Source of the DNA: Dictyostelium discoideum
Taxonomy: Eukaryota
Reading direction: 5' to 3'
NCBI GenBank assembly: GCA_000004695.1
Contig: CM000150.2
Location: forward strand, 4,128,001 to 4,192,000
DNA length: 64,000 nt
Position numbers and translations under genes: made by a program. The notes under the pieces were generated by a model, which saw nothing but the letters and a program-made list of their open reading frames with translations, was not told where the DNA came from and did no database searches. This document shows, one piece after another, positions 30,837 to 64,000 of this stretch. Numbering within the stretch: the first letter of the stretch is position 1; each line of letters starts with the position of its first letter.

Positions 30837-30869
30837 TGTGATTTAATTGTGGAAAAATTAAAAAAATTT

Positions 30870-30942
30870 CGCCCAAAGGGGGGCTCGAACCCCCGACCAC
30901 AAGGTTAAAAGCCTTGCGCTCTACCGACTGAGCTATCTGGGC
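30870..30942 (-). tRNA. tRNA-Lys (anticodon UUU), 73 nt.
   Basis: Minus-strand sequence: GCCCAGATAGCTCAGTCGGTAGAGCGCAAGGCTTTTAACCTTGTGGTCGGGGGTTCGAGCCCCCCTTTGGGCG. I folded it by hand. Acceptor 7 bp with one G-U, D-stem GCTC/GAGC, anticodon stem CAAGG/CCTTG, loop CTTTTAA, T-stem GGGGG/CCCCC, TTCGAGC loop. Confidence 0.9.
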
Positions 30943-30984
30943 ATTTGTATATTTTTTTTTGAAACTATAGCAGTACTTGATCGT

Positions 30985-35570: not shown

Positions 35571-35643
35571 TGCTCGATGCAGGGATCGAACCTGCGACCG
35601 TGGCGTTATTAGCACCACGCTCTGCCGACTGAGCTAATCGAGC
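35571..35643 (-). tRNA. tRNA-Ile (anticodon AAU), 73 nt.
   Basis: Minus-strand sequence: GCTCGATTAGCTCAGTCGGCAGAGCGTGGTGCTAATAACGCCACGGTCGCAGGTTCGATCCCTGCATCGAGCA. All four stems are perfectly paired. Anticodon loop CTAATAA. Confidence 0.9.
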
Positions 35644-44901: not shown

Positions 44902-45497
44902 AAATTAAAAAAAAAAATCTTTTTTTTTGGGTTGGTTTGTTTTTTAATTTAAAAAAAAAAAGAAAAAAAAGAATAAAAATTAAGATTTAAAAGAATGGAT
45001 TAATTTACACTTTAAATTTTTGATACTTTACAATCAAATTTTAATTTTTACCCTTTGTTTTATATTTTTGGCTAATTTTTTTTTTTTTTTTTTTTTTCTC
45101 AAGAGTAACTGTTAAAGAAAATCGGAAATAAAAAAATAAAAATAAAAAAAATAAAAGAAAAAATGATCATTTAATGATTAATAAAAAATATTGAGCTTTA
45201 TTAGTTTATTGATTCTAAATATGTTTCTATTTTTTTTATTTCTGTACATTTGAAGACACATTTATATGTACTGGTAAGCGAGGCTGTAATAAAAACTTTG
45301 ATTTAAACAGCCTAAATGTGTCCAAACAAAAAAATGAATCCATTGCAAAATACACAACTTTTTTTTCTTTTAAAAACGTGCATTGTAAAATACCTAAATT
45401 GAAATTAAACTGCTAGAAACTAATTTATTGTAAAAAACAGAACTTTTTTTCTTTTAAAAACGTGCATTTATTACAAAATACAAAAATTGGATTTGAA

Positions 45498-45622
45498 TTG
45501 CCAGAAGCCATTTCAAACAAAAACGTGTTTTAAATTAAAATACCAAACTTTTTTTTTTCTAATTATAAAAAAAATAAGTTTGGTATTTTGCTGTAAAAGC
45601 ACGTTTTTGTTTTGAAATGGCT
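45498..45622. repeat. Imperfect inverted repeat with arms of about 50 bp (45498-45548 and 45569-45622) and a roughly 20-nt A/T spacer. It lies 250 bp upstream of the C2 gene ATG. The region also has three direct copies of CTTTTAAAAACGTGCATT / AAAACGTG.
   Basis: Arm 1: ttgccagaagccatttcaaacaaaaacgtgttttaaattaaaataccaaac. Reverse complement of arm 2: ttgccagaagccatttcaaaacaaaaacgtgcttttacagcaaaataccaaac. Confidence 0.8.
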
Positions 45623-45871
45623 TCTGGCAATTGTTAAAACCTGAAAGAATTTGGTTCTTAGTTTTATCAAAATTTTTGGTTGCGACATTAAGGGCGATTC
45701 GATTTCTCTGAATTTTATTTTTTTTTATTTTTTTTTAATTTTTTTTTTTTAAATTTTAAAAAAAAAAAAATATATTCAAAAAAAAAAAAAAAAAAAAGTT
45801 AAAATTAAAAAAAAAAACATTTTCAATAATAATTTGTAGAAATATAAAGAGTAATAATAATAATATTAAAA

Positions 45872-45892
45872 ATGGGTTTAGAAGAAGAACAA

Positions 45893-45960
<68 letters not shown>

Positions 45961-46166
45961 TAATACCTCCACTATTAATAATAATAGTGCAAACACCACG
46001 CCATTATTAGAGAAAAGACCAAATAACTCAACAATAACAAACATTGAAATTGATGAGCAACCAACATATCAACCTATAAATTTAAGTAAAGAAACTGACG
46101 TACCACAATATACAACAAATCCTTATTCACCACAACCGGGTCAATATGGACAAATTGAATTCATTC

Positions 46167-46214
<48 letters not shown>

Positions 46215-47149
46215 ATTATCAACAACAACAATATCCTCAACAATATGACCAACAATACTATCAACAACAGCAAGAATATTATCAAACACAACCAACACAA
46301 GCAATTTTAAATGGAATTTTACCAACAACCACTACAACCACTACTACTACAACATCATCATCATCATCACAATATTTAATTGAACCAATGTTAATGATAC
46401 CAACAGGAGCAATTGCAACTTTTGATATGAATATGAATTCAAAAGCAACAATCAATTTCGATTCTATTTGTGTACCAGATACATGTACATTCTATTGTAG
46501 TAGTCCAATTGGTAAGGGAAGATTAAAGGTTAGAATTATTTCAGCAGGTAATTTAATTGCGGCTGATATTGGTGGTACGTCAGACCCATATGTTAAAATT
46601 AAATCATCATGTTTGAAATCATTTAAAGCAACAAGAATCGTTGATAAATGTTTAAATCCAGTTTGGGAGGAAACTTTAGCAGTGGAAATAGATTGTGTGG
46701 AGAGGGAATTACTCATGTTTGACATCTACGATCATGATGTGGTTGGTTGTGACGATTTGTTGGGCTATGTGGGTATTGACGTCTCAAAATTACCATTAGG
46801 TATTGAAGTTGTGACCAATGAGAATCTATCATTTGCAAAACATGGTACTTTGAAAATTGCATTGACAGCATTAGACTTTGGCTTGACCAATTTACCTCAA
46901 AATTATTTAACAACTTATCAAGAATGGAGATCTCACACTTTGGGTGGTATCACTAAAAAACATTTCAAATCAATTAAAAAGAGTTCAAAGATTGGTCCAT
47001 ACGTTAGTAAATTAACTCATCCTCACGATTATAAATTAGTTAATGGTTTCGTTAAAAGAAGAAAAACTAGACGTGAAAAAACTGCTGATGGCATCATTAC
47101 AGGTTTAAAAGTTGCCGGTGTTGTTGCTTTAGTCGCTATCTCTTCTTAA
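45872..47149 (+). CDS. C2-domain protein of 425 aa with an Asn/Gln-rich N-terminal half. Single exon.
   Basis: C2 core: GKGRLKVRIISAGNLIAADIGGTSDPYVKIKSSCLKSFKATRIVDKCLNPVWEETLAVEIDCVERELLMFDIYDHDVVGCDDLLGYVGIDVSKL. Complete ORF. Confidence 0.8.
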
Positions 47150-54086: not shown

Positions 54087-55901
<1,815 letters not shown>

Positions 55902-57580: not shown

Positions 57581-57676
57581 TGGAGAAGAAGGGTATCGAT
57601 CCCTTTACCTTATGGAAATCTGATTATCGTTGCTGTTTATGCAAACCATACGCTCTACCATATGAGCTACATCCCC
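57581..57676 (-). tRNA. tRNA-Ala (anticodon UGC) with an apparent 23-nt intron in the anticodon loop. The intron is at about 57616-57638 on the plus strand.
   Basis: Minus-strand sequence: GGGGATGTAGCTCATATGGTAGAGCGTATGGTTTGCA[TAAACAGCAACGATAATCAGATT]TCCATAAGGTAAAGGGATCGATACCCTTCTTCTCCA. The acceptor has the G3:U70 Ala identity pair. D-stem GCTC/GAGC. Anticodon stem TATGG/CCATA around loop TTTGCAT (U33, A37). T-arm AAGGG-ATCGATA-CCCTT. The overall sequence closely resembles eukaryotic tRNA-Ala(UGC). There is one acceptor-stem mismatch (T6·T67). Confidence 0.6.
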
Positions 57677-60735: not shown

Positions 60736-61202
60736 TTTTTACTTGGGTGGATAACTTTTTTAATTTTTTAATTTTTTTTATAATTTTTATTTTATTTTTT
60801 TTTTTTGTTTTTATTTTTTTTTTTTTTTTTTATTTTTTATTTCCCAAAGATATTTACCTTTTTTTATTTTTTCAAAATTTTTTATTTAGATATTTATTTT
60901 TTTGTCAGCCCACTTTTTTTTTTTTTAAAATTTCCACCACTATCATTGGTTTTTTTTTTTTTTTTTTTTTTTTAATTAAATACAAGCAACAGAGGTTTAG
61001 GTAATCACAATTATTAAACCCACAAACAGCACCAGAATTAGTTTTTTTTTTATAGTTGTCTCTTTCAAAATTAATTTTATTACTATTTTAATTTAAAAAT
61101 TACAACTTTTGTTTTGAAAATTAAATAAAAATATATATAATTAATAAAATAATGTGTGTTATTTAAATAAATTTATTTTTATTGTACAATTAAAATTTTT
61201 AT

Positions 61203-61916
61203 TTAATAAAATTCTTCTTTGATAACTAAATCATTTGACCATTGTTGAACGGCCCATTGATTCTTTTTAATACGATGTTCACCATACGTGAAATCCATAA
61301 ACATTTCATATGCTGTATTATTACCATCAACTAATAGTTTTAATAATTTTGCTTCATGGATTGTTGCATTATTTACAAAAGATTCTTCAGCTTTACGATT
61401 TGCAGCTTTACCAACACGATTAGTCGAATCACCTTTTTCATACATAATTATATCTTGATGATAGAATTTATCGAATACTTCTAAGATTTTATTATCTTGA
61501 ATACCTTTAATAATTGATTCTAAATTTGATTTGATATTAGTTGATGGTTCTGGAGTTGATGGTGTTTTAATTTCAATAAATTCTTCTTTAATTATTAAAC
61601 CATTTGACCATTGTTGGAATGCCCATTGACTCTTTTTGATACGATGTTCGCCATATGTGAAATCCATAAACATTTCATATGCTGTATTATCACCATCTAC
61701 GATTGTTTTTAATAATTTTGCTTCATGGATTGTTGCATTATTAACAAAGGATTCTTCAGCTTTACGATTTGCAGCTTTACCTACACGATTTGTTGAATCA
61801 CCATTTTCATACATTACAACTTCATCATGGTAATATTTATCGAATACCTCTAATATTTTATTATCTTGAATACCTTTAATGATTGCTTCTAAATTTGATT
61901 TAATATTTGATGACAT
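61203..61916 (-). CDS. Protein of 237 aa made of two tandem NTF2-like / SnoaL-like domains (copy 1 of a tandem gene pair).
   Basis: Each half (..NLEAIIKGIQDNKILEVFDKYYHDEVVMYENGDSTNRVGKAANRKAEESFVNNATIHEAKLLKTIVDGDNTAYEMFMDFTYGEHRIKKSQWAFQQWSNGLIIKEEF) has the length and hydrophobic pattern of the SnoaL/ketosteroid-isomerase-like fold. The two halves are about 85% identical. Confidence 0.6.
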   Translation of the reverse strand: MSSNIKSNLEAIIKGIQDNKILEVFDKYYHDEVVMYENGDSTNRVGKAANRKAEESFVNNATIHEAKLLKTIVDGDNTAYEMFMDFTYGEHRIKKSQWAFQQWSNGLIIKEEFIEIKTPSTPEPSTNIKSNLESIIKGIQDNKILEVFDKFYHQDIIMYEKGDSTNRVGKAANRKAEESFVNNATIHEAKLLKLLVDGNNTAYEMFMDFTYGEHRIKKNQWAVQQWSNDLVIKEEFY

Positions 61917-62436
61917 TTTATTTAATTATTTATTTATATTTAATTATTTATTTAACTATTTGTTCAATTTTTTATTTATTTAATTATTTATTTATTTAAT
62001 TAATTATTTATTTTATTTATTTGTTTAAAAATAAAAGAAAGAATTTTAATTTATTTTTGATTTTTTTTTAAATGAATGAATAATTTTTTTTTTTTTTACA
62101 TTTTATAGATTTTATTTTTATTTAAAACAAATAACTATCATTCTCAACTATTCTGGTGCTTGTCAATAAATTATAATAAAAAAAAAAAAAATAAACTCCA
62201 GAACATTATATTTTTTAAAAAATTTTTTATGGGATTTTTGAAATAACTTTGGAAAAAAAAAAAAAAAAAAATATTTTCACTTTTTTAATTTTTTTTTTAT
62301 TTATTTTTATTTTTATTTTAAAACAATATATTATAATATTACAATTGCAATTAATAGATAAAAAAAACATTTTATTTTTATAATAATGAATACATACAAA
62401 ACCAGAATTGTTAATAAAGACATCACCCAACAGAGA

Positions 62437-62560
62437 GGTACAGCAATTAAATCCAGTTATGTTCTACAAATGATACAATGTGTGTTGAATTTCCTAATTA
62501 AACACTCATTTTTAAATTATTGTTCATTTGTAGAACATAACTGGATTTGATTACTGTACC
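62437..62560. repeat. Near-perfect hairpin with a 37-bp stem (62437-62473 and 62524-62560, 2 mismatches) and a 50-nt loop, between the two NTF2-like genes.
   Basis: Arm 1: ggtacagcaattaaatccagttatgttctacaaatga. Reverse complement of arm 2: ggtacagtaatcaaatccagttatgttctacaaatga. Confidence 0.85.
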
Positions 62561-63195
62561 TGCAGCTGAGATTTTACACCCAAATAAATAATAATATTTT
62601 AAGTCATAATAATTCACAAAATCCACCAGAATTAATTTCTTCTTCCACCACAAATTCTCAATAATATCTCAGAATACTGGTGTTCCTTCTATTGATGAAA
62701 TTCTTAATCATTTCATCAGAAGAAGTACTTAATTTATTCAAATAAAGTTAAAAATAAAATTATATATTAAATTTTTAAATTTTTTTTTTTTTTTTTTTTT
62801 TTTTACACAAGCTGTTTGTTTGATCCAAAACAGGGCTGGTGTAACAATGATTTAAAATTGTTTTTAATATTAATTAAATACATAAAAATAGAGCACTCAC
62901 AAATACACAAAATGATATAAAATATTAAAAAAATGAATATGATCTTTTTTTTTATTTTTTGAATTTAATTACCATTTTTTGTAATTTATTTTATTTTGAG
63001 GAACAATTAAAGGAATTAATTAATTTTTTTAAACAAAAAACATAAAAAAAAAAAATAAAAAATATACCTCATTTAAAAAAAAAAAATAAATAATTAAAAA
63101 TAATCTATTTAATTAATAAGTTAAAAAAAATATGTATTCTTTGTGTTTAAAGTTTAAATTTTATTGTACATTTTTTTTTAAAAAAAAAAGTTTAT

Positions 63196-63909
63196 TTAAT
63201 AAAATTCTTCTTTGATAACTAAATCATTTGACCATTGTTGAACGGCCCATTGATTCTTTTTAATACGATGTTCACCATATGTGAAATCCATAAACATTTC
63301 ATATGCTGTGTTATTACCATCAACTAATAATTTTAATAATTTTGCTTCATGGATTGTTGCATTATTTACAAAAGATTCTTCAGCTTTACGATTTGCAGCT
63401 TTACCAACACGATTAGTCGAATCACCTTTTTCATACATAATTATATCTTGATGATAGAATTTATCGAATACTTCTAAGATTTTATTATCTTGAATACCTT
63501 TAATAATTGATTCTAAATTTGATTTGATATTAGTTGATGGTTCTGGAGTTGATGGTGTTTTAATCTCAACAAATTCTTCTTTAATTATTAAACCATTTGA
63601 CCATTGTTGGAATGCCCATTGACTCTTTTTGATACGATGTTCACCATATGTGAAATCCATAAACATTTCATATGCTGTATTATCACCATCTACGATTGTT
63701 TTTAATAGCTTTGCTTCATGGATTGTTGCATTATTAACAAAGGATTCTTCAGCTTTACGATTTGCAGCTTTACCTACACGGTTTGTTGAATCACCATTTT
63801 CATACATTACAATTTCATCATGATAGTATTTATCGAATACCTCTAATATTTTATTATCTTGAATACCTTTAATGATTGCTTCTAAATTTGATTTATTATT
63901 TGATGACAT
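63196..63909 (-). CDS. Second tandem copy of the double NTF2/SnoaL-like-domain gene (237 aa). It differs from copy 1 at 3 positions.
   Basis: The ORF-track translations are nearly identical (S4N/I, V33I, I114V). The flanking upstream DNA (63910-64000) also matches 61917-62000. Confidence 0.6.
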   Translation of the reverse strand: MSSNNKSNLEAIIKGIQDNKILEVFDKYYHDEIVMYENGDSTNRVGKAANRKAEESFVNNATIHEAKLLKTIVDGDNTAYEMFMDFTYGEHRIKKSQWAFQQWSNGLIIKEEFVEIKTPSTPEPSTNIKSNLESIIKGIQDNKILEVFDKFYHQDIIMYEKGDSTNRVGKAANRKAEESFVNNATIHEAKLLKLLVDGNNTAYEMFMDFTYGEHRIKKNQWAVQQWSNDLVIKEEFY

Positions 63910-64000
63910 TTTGTTTATTTAATTATTTATTTATTTAATTATTTATTTAACTATTTGTTTAATTTTTTATTTATTTGTTGATATTTTTTTAATGAATGAA

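What the first reader, a model, noticed from the sequence alone, without database searches (positions are those of the whole stretch)
62437..62560. 37-bp-stem hairpin between the tandem NTF2-like genes
Two 37-nt arms with only two mismatches flank a 50-nt loop. A perfect stem of this length is far more than expected by chance in 64 kb. It could be a hairpin small-RNA or miRNA-like precursor, the paired termini of a tiny MITE-like element, or a recombination-prone cruciform that helped generate the adjacent roughly 2-kb tandem duplication (61150-63150 against 63150-64000+).
Basis: seen in the sequence. Interest (0 to 1): 0.55.

Follow-up and report, generated by a model that had tools for sequence, protein, structure and literature searches.

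The report
Young strain-specific hairpin between tandem genes
A real 37-base-pair inverted repeat lies between two tandem genes of Dictyostelium discoideum, inside DNA found only in the laboratory-strain lineage; it looks like a newly born microRNA-type hairpin, but nothing shows that it makes small RNAs, and it did not cause the gene duplication.

Summary
Arms 62437-62473 and 62524-62560 are 37 nt long, with two non-complementary positions and a 50-nt spacer. As RNA, 36 of 37 positions pair on either strand (one is a G.U wobble). MFE is -62.5 kcal/mol, z = -14.5. It is the only long, non-low-complexity inverted repeat of this quality in the window; shuffles reach arms of 19 nt at most.

The window is D. 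discoideum AX4 chromosome 1, between the SnoaL-like genes DDB_G0270076 and DDB_G0270078. The hairpin is not part of the duplicated unit. It lies in about 470 nt (roughly 62315-62784) found only in the AX4-type lineage. Two other D. discoideum isolates lack it, one of which has the same tandem gene pair. Two D. cf. discoideum isolates, D. dimigraforme and D. purpureum also lack it.

So the cruciform-made-the-duplication idea is not supported. The MITE idea has no support either: no target-site duplication and no second copy in about 250 kb of Dictyostelium DNA.

Size, loop and stability (-0.62 kcal/mol/nt at 22 C) fall within the range of known D. discoideum miRNA precursors. The hairpin matches no published miRNA or candidate that I could check. 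My best reading is a young "proto-miRNA" hairpin module, with expression unproven. Interest is modest.

The parts
62437..62473 (.). 5' arm of the inverted repeat (37 nt, GC 32%)
62474..62523 (.). 50-nt spacer or loop; predicted to add a few pairs on top of the stem after a 1-nt bulge
62524..62560 (.). 3' arm; complementary to the 5' arm except at 62553 (opposite 62444) and 62549 (opposite 62448)
62431..62568 (.). Full predicted RNA hairpin, including three closing pairs CAG/CUG outside the arms (138 nt)
   Evidence: fold of 62430-62568, both strands
62315..62784 (.). Main lineage-specific segment (about 470 nt) that carries the hairpin. It is bracketed by A/T runs, so the ends are uncertain by about +/-20 nt. 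Isolate L008 has only about 50 nt of A-rich sequence at this place
   Evidence: no match in L004-L010
62386..62740 (.). GC-elevated core (about 0.28-0.29 against 0.10-0.15 in the flanks), with the hairpin at its left end. It has coding-like codon usage in two + strand frames, but no protein homologue
62810..62848 (.). Second, 39-nt AX4-lineage-specific piece (TACACCAGCCC...TGTGT on the - strand), separated from the main segment by an A25/T25 run
61203..61916 (-). DDB_G0270076, a SnoaL-like two-domain protein (downstream tandem copy)
63196..63909 (-). DDB_G0270078, a SnoaL-like two-domain protein (upstream tandem copy); CDS 98.2% identical to DDB_G0270076
61085..62240 (-). Repeated unit 1 (3' flank + gene + about 330-nt promoter region). 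Homology to unit 2 and to all other isolates stops near 62236-62244
63059..64000 (-). Repeated unit 2 (3' flank + gene; its promoter part runs beyond the window end)

Best explanation
The hairpin is a single-copy, evolutionarily young inverted duplication. It sits inside about 470 nt of DNA that only the NC4/AX4 laboratory lineage of D. discoideum carries, in the spacer between two tandem SnoaL-like genes.

It arrived, or survived, as a block after the tandem gene pair and its spacer already existed. It is therefore a passenger of that locus, not its cause.

If either strand is transcribed, the RNA folds into a 37-position stem (35 Watson-Crick pairs, 1 G.U, 1 mismatch) topped by a 50-nt loop. 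That is a substrate for the Dictyostelium Dicer-like nucleases: DrnB for miRNAs, DrnA for siRNAs.

I read it as a 'proto-miRNA / hairpin-RNA module'. Dictyostelium miRNA genes are known to appear and disappear through gain and loss of such whole hairpin loci. This one would be at a stage where precise small-RNA production is not documented.

Shown: the structure, its statistical significance, single copy in the available DNA, position outside the repeated unit, and absence from six orthologous loci.

Inferred: that it is an insertion rather than a deletion elsewhere (by parsimony), that it is transcribed, and that it is diced.
For: Structure and significance.

Organism and locus.

Outside the repeated unit: the spacer 61917-63195 shares with the next unit only its promoter end (61970-62321) and its 3'-flank end (63027-63189).

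Lineage specificity: the insert and hairpin are found only in L001/L003. That assembly differs from the window by 1 substitution and 6 homopolymer indels in 10 kb, so it is the same lineage. They are absent from L008 and L009 (D. discoideum isolates, about 94% identical in the adjacent GH5 gene region), L006 and L007 (D. cf. discoideum), L004 (D. dimigraforme) and L005 (D. purpureum).

Order of events: L008 has two tandem SnoaL genes and shares about 90 nt of spacer (62844-62933, 86%) with AX4, but has about 50 A-rich nt where AX4 has the insert. The paralogous junction upstream of DDB_G0270078 also lacks it.

miRNA-like metrics: -77.7 (+ strand) and -76.4 (- strand) kcal/mol at 22 C for 124 nt, about -0.62 to -0.63 per nt. 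Published D. discoideum miRNA hairpins are 101-151 nt, -0.43 to -0.70 kcal/mol/nt, with loops of 41-91 nt (PMC11014262 Table S3). My ViennaRNA reproduces the published -88.47 kcal/mol for ddi-mir-1183 exactly.

Literature: all but one D. discoideum miRNA are species-specific. [quoted passage not shown]

Composition: a GC island in AT-rich intergenic DNA.
Against: There is no evidence of transcription or small RNAs.

12-16-mers from the arms are absent from the full text of the held literature and from the held supplements of the three Dictyostelium miRNA papers that have any.

The sequence is not among the 12 candidates of Liao 2018 Table S1 or the Meier 2016 table. The chromosome 1 miRNA loci in Liao Table S3 lie at 0.27 and 2.72 Mb, whereas this locus is about 0.75 Mb from a contig end.

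Energy fingerprints of the unnamed Edelbroek 2024 candidates and of mir-7096 do not match any window over the hairpin exactly. The closest is -82.24 against -82.18 kcal/mol. So three deep small-RNA libraries did not flag it as passing any miRNA criteria set.

The upper stem is perfectly paired, which fails the 'at least 1 mismatch' criterion and is more siRNA-like.

The T-rich+G TSS motif 179 nt upstream on the - strand is uninformative, because the motif occurs 3-5 times per kb per strand in this window.

No Rfam family matches.

A second long hairpin in the same 64 kb (45489-45641) suggests that such structures are far commoner than annotated miRNAs. That lowers the prior that any one of them is functional.
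Confidence: 0.45

Rival explanations
1. Silent by-product of DNA repair or insertion. The inverted duplication arose through template switching or fold-back synthesis when filler DNA was inserted into an A/T-rich tract of the spacer. It is never transcribed at a meaningful level, has no function, and will decay.
For: The hairpin is private to one lineage. The insert is bracketed by A/T runs. It is absent from every published small-RNA candidate list I could check. A second, unrelated long hairpin in the same window suggests a general mutational source of such structures. Arm divergence of 2/37 fits neutral drift.
Against: The GC-elevated core of about 350 nt (0.29 against about 0.12 in the flanks) is unusual for Dictyostelium intergenic DNA, although a young insert may simply keep the composition of its source. 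Known Dictyostelium miRNA loci show the same lineage-specific pattern. Absence from strict miRNA lists does not exclude low or imprecise small-RNA output.
Confidence: 0.35
2. Miniature inverted-repeat (MITE or foldback-like) element. The two arms are terminal inverted repeats of a 124-bp non-autonomous DNA transposon, or the whole insert of about 470 nt is a mobile element.
For: 37-nt terminal inverted repeats and small size. Presence/absence polymorphism between isolates. D. discoideum has repeat-borne miRNAs in thug-S. A DDE_Tnp_4 transposase fragment lies in a paralogous SnoaL array of another isolate (L010).
Against: No direct repeat abuts the arms. The flanks are ...ACAGAGA | and | TGCAGCTG, and they are inverted rather than direct (CAG/CUG). 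There is no other copy in the 64-kb window or in about 190 kb of other Dictyostelium loci, and none in the metagenome, viral or prokaryote collections. The polymorphic block is about 470 nt, not the 124-bp hairpin alone.
Confidence: 0.08
3. Recombinogenic cruciform that triggered the tandem duplication of the SnoaL-like genes.
For: It lies at the junction between two tandem units. Replication-based duplication mechanisms can leave inverted filler at junctions (general knowledge).
Against: Isolate L008 has the tandem pair and shares part of the junction spacer, but lacks the hairpin. The other junction in AX4 (half copy to DDB_G0270078) lacks it too. From general knowledge, a 50-nt spacer strongly disfavours cruciform extrusion for 37-bp arms.
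Confidence: 0.03
4. An already annotated D. discoideum miRNA that I could not check (for example ddi-mir-7099, 7100 or 7101 from Avesson et al. 2012, a paper not held in the library).
For: Avesson 2012 could not be read. Not every miRBase entry appears in the tables I could read.
Against: No arm 12-16-mer appears anywhere in the searchable literature or held supplements. The listed chromosome 1 loci are elsewhere. The energy fingerprint does not match mir-7096.
Confidence: 0.05

Closest known systems
DrnB-dependent miRNA precursors of D. discoideum (ddi-mir-1176, 1177, 1183, 1185, 7097 and others; Liao 2018 PMC6161686, Edelbroek 2024 PMC11014262)
   Same: An intergenic hairpin of about 100-150 nt. 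Stability per nucleotide at 22 C and loop size fall within the published range. It is lineage-specific, and the whole locus is present or absent as a block ('module').
   Different: No small-RNA reads, no DrnB dependence and no pri-transcript are known. The stem is longer and more perfect than in most annotated precursors. It is not in any list I could check.
[quoted passage not shown]
   Same: A near-perfect long stem, very recent origin, and arms that are copies of one another.
   Different: No parent or target gene was found. Translated pieces of the insert have no protein homologue, and no complementary site exists in the window.
thug-S repeat-borne miRNAs of D. discoideum, and MITE-derived miRNAs in general
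   Same: A hairpin formed by inverted repeats that could be carried on mobile DNA, with presence/absence polymorphism.
   Different: Single copy in all DNA available here. No target-site duplication. The published thug-S small RNAs (miRNA_can_D3) are unrelated in sequence.
Hairpin-RNA (hpRNA) endo-siRNA loci
   Same: A perfectly paired upper stem would give siRNA-like duplexes rather than a bulged miRNA duplex.
   Different: The stem of 37 bp can yield at most one or two 21-nt phases, whereas classical hpRNA stems are hundreds of bp long (from my own knowledge).

Membership tests
miRNA gene (miRBase high-confidence criteria as applied in Liao 2018 Table S1) | Hairpin folding free energy below -0.2 kcal/mol/nt | tested here: met
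   -0.48 kcal/mol/nt at 37 C and -0.62 to -0.63 at 22 C for the 124-nt hairpin
miRNA gene (miRBase high-confidence criteria as applied in Liao 2018 Table S1) | [quoted passage not shown] | tested here: met
   Any 21-mer within the stem has at least 20 of 21 positions paired
miRNA gene (miRBase high-confidence criteria as applied in Liao 2018 Table S1) | At least 10 reads on each arm, a 0-4 nt 3' overhang, and at least 50% of reads sharing one 5' end | not testable with these tools
   No small-RNA read data can be reached. The indirect check was negative: the hairpin is not identifiable among the candidates of PMC11014262 Table S3
miRNA gene (MirGeneDB-type criterion used in Edelbroek 2024) | [quoted passage not shown] | tested here: inconclusive
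   The upper 25 bp of the stem are perfect; the lower 12 bp hold one mismatch and one G.U. The outcome depends on where the RNA is diced
D. discoideum DrnB-dependent miRNA | Loss of the small RNA and accumulation of the pri-transcript in drnB- or rbdB- cells | not testable with these tools
   Requires the published or new RNA-seq data
D. discoideum pri-miRNA | A T-rich stretch of about 25 nt ending in G upstream of the TSS | tested here: inconclusive
   The motif is present on the - strand with its G at 62739, 179 nt upstream. However, it occurs 3.2 (+) and 4.8 (-) times per kb in the window, so the match is expected by chance
MITE / small DNA transposon | Terminal inverted repeats | tested here: met
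   37-nt arms
MITE / small DNA transposon | Target-site duplication flanking the terminal repeats | tested here: not met
   The flanks ACAGAGA / TGCAGCTG share no direct repeat
MITE / small DNA transposon | Multiple dispersed copies in the genome | tested here: inconclusive
   One copy in the 64-kb window and none in the other fetched Dictyostelium loci that are not the same locus. The whole genome could not be searched
Palindrome that drove the tandem duplication | Present wherever the duplication junction is present | tested here: not met
   L008 has the tandem pair and a shared spacer segment without the hairpin. The second AX4 junction also lacks it
Any curated RNA family (Rfam 15) | Covariance-model match at the gathering score | tested here: not met
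   Only tRNAs pass in the window. At the relaxed threshold, only chance-level hits appear at E = 6-8

The most novel reading that the evidence does not exclude
An unannotated hairpin-RNA or miRNA gene specific to the NC4/AX laboratory lineage, caught just after birth. A module of about 470 nt carrying a 37-bp hairpin was inserted into an A-rich tract between tandem genes. The mechanism may have been retroposition of a - strand hairpin transcript, because the insert ends in an A-rich tail on that strand. It is now transcribed and diced at low level or only in particular conditions. This would be a dated, strain-resolved example of miRNA gain by 'module' insertion in Amoebozoa.
Probability: 0.18. 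Interest if true: 0.55.

Novelty: new member of a known kind. Interest (0 to 1): 0.3.

Why it matters
Dictyostelium miRNAs turn over very fast. Only one is shared with the sister species, and how new ones arise is an open question that the field is actively pursuing (PMC11014262). A hairpin whose gain can be placed between closely related isolates, with the empty site still visible in another isolate, would be a useful test case for miRNA birth by insertion of a ready-made hairpin. If it proves silent, it is simply a private palindrome. It would then be a reminder that long hairpins are commoner in this genome than miRNA genes, given that two occur in this 64-kb window.

Tried and rejected
- **Known RNA family.** Rfam at gathering and at relaxed thresholds gave nothing.
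- **Published small RNAs.** I string-searched arm 12-16-mers in all held papers and in the held supplements of Liao 2018, Meier 2016 and Edelbroek 2024. There were no Dictyostelium hits. Hinas 2007 has no held supplement. Avesson 2012 is not held.
- **Unnamed candidates in Edelbroek 2024.** I tried to identify the hairpin with ddis_Cluster_1680, 1065 or 1861, or with mir-7096, by exact folding energy at 22 C. I first confirmed that my ViennaRNA reproduces the published -88.47 kcal/mol for mir-1183. The nearest value was -82.24 against -82.18, so no exact match and the idea was rejected.
- **Gene-fragment origin or target gene.** Codon-usage scoring shows coding-like stretches on the + strand. 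A 95-aa composite query found no protein sharing words. An exhaustive phmmer search with the 39-aa piece 62613-62729 found 0 hits among 1.84 billion representatives. The ORFs over the hairpin are not in the protein collection. No parent was found.
- **Other copies or target sites in the window.** None.
- **Copies in paralogous SnoaL arrays.** None in L002 (D. dimigraforme) or L010 (isolate ACTFIW). The AX4 paralogous loci were not on record.
- **Metagenome, viral and prokaryote collections.** No match.
- **Mirtron idea.** GT at 62438 and AG at 62564-62565 bracket the hairpin, but the spliced frame stops after 8 codons and the GC content is not intron-like. Rejected on reading the sequence.
- **T-rich+G TSS motif as a strand indicator.** Too frequent to be informative.

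Full report
**1. The observation**

Two 37-nt arms (62437-62473 and 62524-62560) are complementary except at two positions and are separated by 50 nt. The two exceptions are 62444/62553 and 62448/62549. On the + strand they read C.A and U.G; on the - strand, G.U and A.C. As RNA, either strand therefore pairs 36 of 37 positions, and the wobble gives no clue to the strand.

The RNA MFE for 62430-62565 is -62.5 kcal/mol. Dinucleotide shuffles give -21.4 +/- 2.8 (z = -14.5, 0 of 200 as good).

The window is extremely AT-rich, so it holds many A-run/T-run 'inverted repeats'. I therefore scanned the whole window with a complexity filter. Of 99 inverted repeats with arms of at least 25 nt and loops of at most 300 nt, only this one has a non-trivial arm composition. 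In 30 composition-preserving block shuffles, the longest complex arm was 12-19 nt, against 38 nt here. The feature is real and far beyond chance.

**2. Where it is**

The two flanking 237-aa ORFs are exact matches to DDB_G0270076 and DDB_G0270078 of Dictyostelium discoideum AX4 (4.92-Mb record). The next gene is the GH5 endoglycoceramidase-like DDB_G0270074. Both 237-aa proteins carry two SnoaL_5 domains of the NTF2-like superfamily. Both lie on the - strand, so the hairpin sits about 630 nt downstream of the upstream copy and about 520 nt upstream of the downstream copy.

**3. The tandem duplication and the hairpin are separate things**

The repeated unit is 3' flank + gene + about 330 nt of promoter. 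Window 61175-62027 and 63170-63997 match each other's units at 95-96%, and the CDSs are 98.2% identical. Within the 1279-nt spacer, only the two ends have counterparts in the next junction, which I fetched from beyond the window as L001: 61970-62321 (promoter side) and 63027-63189 (3'-flank side). The middle, including the hairpin, is unique.

**4. Comparison across isolates and species**

I fetched the orthologous locus from other assemblies, anchored on the GH5 gene.

- An AX4-type assembly (L001/L003) differs from the window by 1 substitution and 6 homopolymer indels in 10 kb. It carries the identical hairpin, once.
- D. discoideum isolate L008 has two tandem SnoaL genes but no hairpin.
- Isolate L009 and two D. 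cf. discoideum isolates (L006, L007) have one SnoaL gene and no hairpin.
- D. dimigraforme (L004) and D. purpureum (L005) have no SnoaL gene at this locus and no hairpin.

L008 shares about 90 nt of the spacer with AX4 (62844-62933, 86%). A long-gap alignment then places about 470 nt of AX4-only sequence (roughly 62315-62784) inside an A-rich tract, where L008 has about 50 nt. A further 39-nt AX4-only piece lies at 62810-62848.

The other AX4 junction also lacks this material. An insertion in the AX4 lineage is therefore more parsimonious than repeated deletions, though I could not polarise it with certainty. Either way, the tandem pair exists without the hairpin, so the hairpin did not create the duplication.

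**5. What the insert is**

It contains a GC-elevated core (62386-62740, about 0.29 against 0.10-0.15 around it). Parts of the + strand score like coding sequence with a codon table trained on the window's own genes.

I found no source for it.

- A composite translated query shares no words with any of 5.8 billion proteins.
- An exhaustive phmmer search with the best 39-aa piece gives nothing.
- The ORFs across the hairpin are not in the protein collection.
- Nothing else in the window or in the fetched loci resembles the core, at DNA or translated level.
- No target-site duplication abuts the arms. The immediate flanks are themselves inverted (CAG/CUG) and simply extend the stem.

On the - strand the insert ends in an A-rich tail next to the A-rich target. 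That would fit retroposition of a hairpin-bearing transcript, but this is speculation.

**6. Is it a known or likely small-RNA gene?**

Rfam gives nothing. Dictyostelium miRNA precursors are intergenic hairpins of 101-151 nt, with -0.43 to -0.70 kcal/mol/nt at 22 C and loops of 41-91 nt. This hairpin (124 nt, -0.62 to -0.63 kcal/mol/nt, 50-nt loop) falls inside that range.

The field reports three relevant points. All but one D. discoideum miRNA are species-specific. Whole miRNA 'modules' are gained and lost. Unusually long hairpins with 0-1 mismatches mark newly evolved miRNAs. The present locus fits that description well.

Against this, there is no expression evidence, and the sequence is not in any list I could check.

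- Arm 12-16-mers are absent from the literature and from the held supplements.
- It is not in Liao 2018 Table S1 or Meier 2016 Table 2.
- The chromosome 1 loci of Liao Table S3 lie at 0.27 and 2.72 Mb, whereas this locus lies about 0.75 Mb from a contig end in two assemblies.
- After confirming that my ViennaRNA reproduces a published energy exactly, I tested whether any window over the hairpin has the exact energy of the unnamed candidates in Edelbroek 2024 or of mir-7096. None does.
- The pri-miRNA TSS motif (a T-rich run ending in G) does occur 179 nt upstream on the - strand. However, it occurs 3-5 times per kb in this window and so carries no weight.

**7. Verdict**

The cruciform-made-the-duplication reading is contradicted. 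The MITE reading fails the target-site-duplication test and has no copy-number support, although a whole-genome count was not possible.

The hairpin-RNA reading remains structurally attractive but unproven. My best explanation is a young, lineage-specific inverted duplication carried on an inserted module. It is a 'proto-miRNA' in form, without documented small-RNA output (confidence 0.45). The main rival is that it is a silent by-product of insertion or repair (0.35).

The same window holds a second, unrelated long hairpin (45489-45641; -74.1 kcal/mol, z = -12.8). This suggests that such structures are much commoner than annotated miRNA genes and tempers the functional reading.

Mapping existing small-RNA and poly(A) RNA-seq data to this locus, together with one BLASTN against the complete genome, would settle the matter.

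Noticed in passing
window 45489-45641: A second long, complex hairpin. It is an inverted duplication with arms of about 60 nt (about 90% complementary, with small indels) around an A/T spacer of about 26 nt. RNA MFE is -74.1 kcal/mol for 45485-45645, z = -12.75. It lies about 230 nt upstream of a C2-domain ORF (45872-47149, +). It is unrelated in sequence to the finding, and its 12-16-mers give no literature hit.
   Followed up: partly
window 61203-64000; loci L001, L004-L009: The copy number of the SnoaL-like gene at this locus varies between isolates and species. The AX4 type has 2 full copies plus a one-domain half copy (L001 7094-7438, beyond the window end). L008 has 2; L009, L006 and L007 have 1; D. 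dimigraforme and D. purpureum have 0. The two AX4 copies are closer to each other (98.2%) than to any other isolate's copy (94.5-96.4%), which suggests gene conversion or a recent re-duplication.
   Followed up: partly
window 61203-61916 and 63196-63909: Each SnoaL-like gene is itself an internal tandem duplication. Its two halves are about 87-88% identical at the DNA level and correspond to two SnoaL_5 domains.
   Followed up: no
window 62692-62717: A small palindrome, TGATGAAAT-TCTTAATC-ATTTCATCA (9-bp stem), about 130 nt to the right of the main hairpin and inside the same lineage-specific insert. It could be chance.
   Followed up: no
window 62810-62848: A 39-nt, relatively GC-rich piece found only in the AX4 lineage. 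It is separated from the main insert by a 25-nt A/T run and contains a short stem (CTGTTTG...CAAAACAG). Rfam hits there are at chance level (E about 6).
   Followed up: no
window 57581-57676 (-): Rfam calls a 96-nt tRNA here (49 bits) that ARAGORN does not report; it presumably contains an intron. The other two tRNAs are Lys(TTT) at 30869-30943 and Ile(AAT) at 35571-35643, both on the - strand.
   Followed up: no
window 54412-54530: A perfect short-period tandem repeat (self-matches offset by multiples of 6 nt, and by 27 nt), seen as a ladder of BLAST hits.
   Followed up: no
L007 15664-20190; L010 5686-6181: In D. cf. discoideum, an LTR-retrotransposon polyprotein (RVT_1, RNase H, integrase) lies near the orthologous locus. 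In isolate ACTFIW, a DDE_Tnp_4 (PIF/Harbinger-type) transposase fragment sits inside the paralogous SnoaL array.
   Followed up: no
L008, L009 against the window (GH5 gene region): Assemblies labelled D. discoideum are only about 94% identical to AX4 across the GH5 gene region. That is unexpectedly divergent for one species and suggests cryptic lineages.
   Followed up: no
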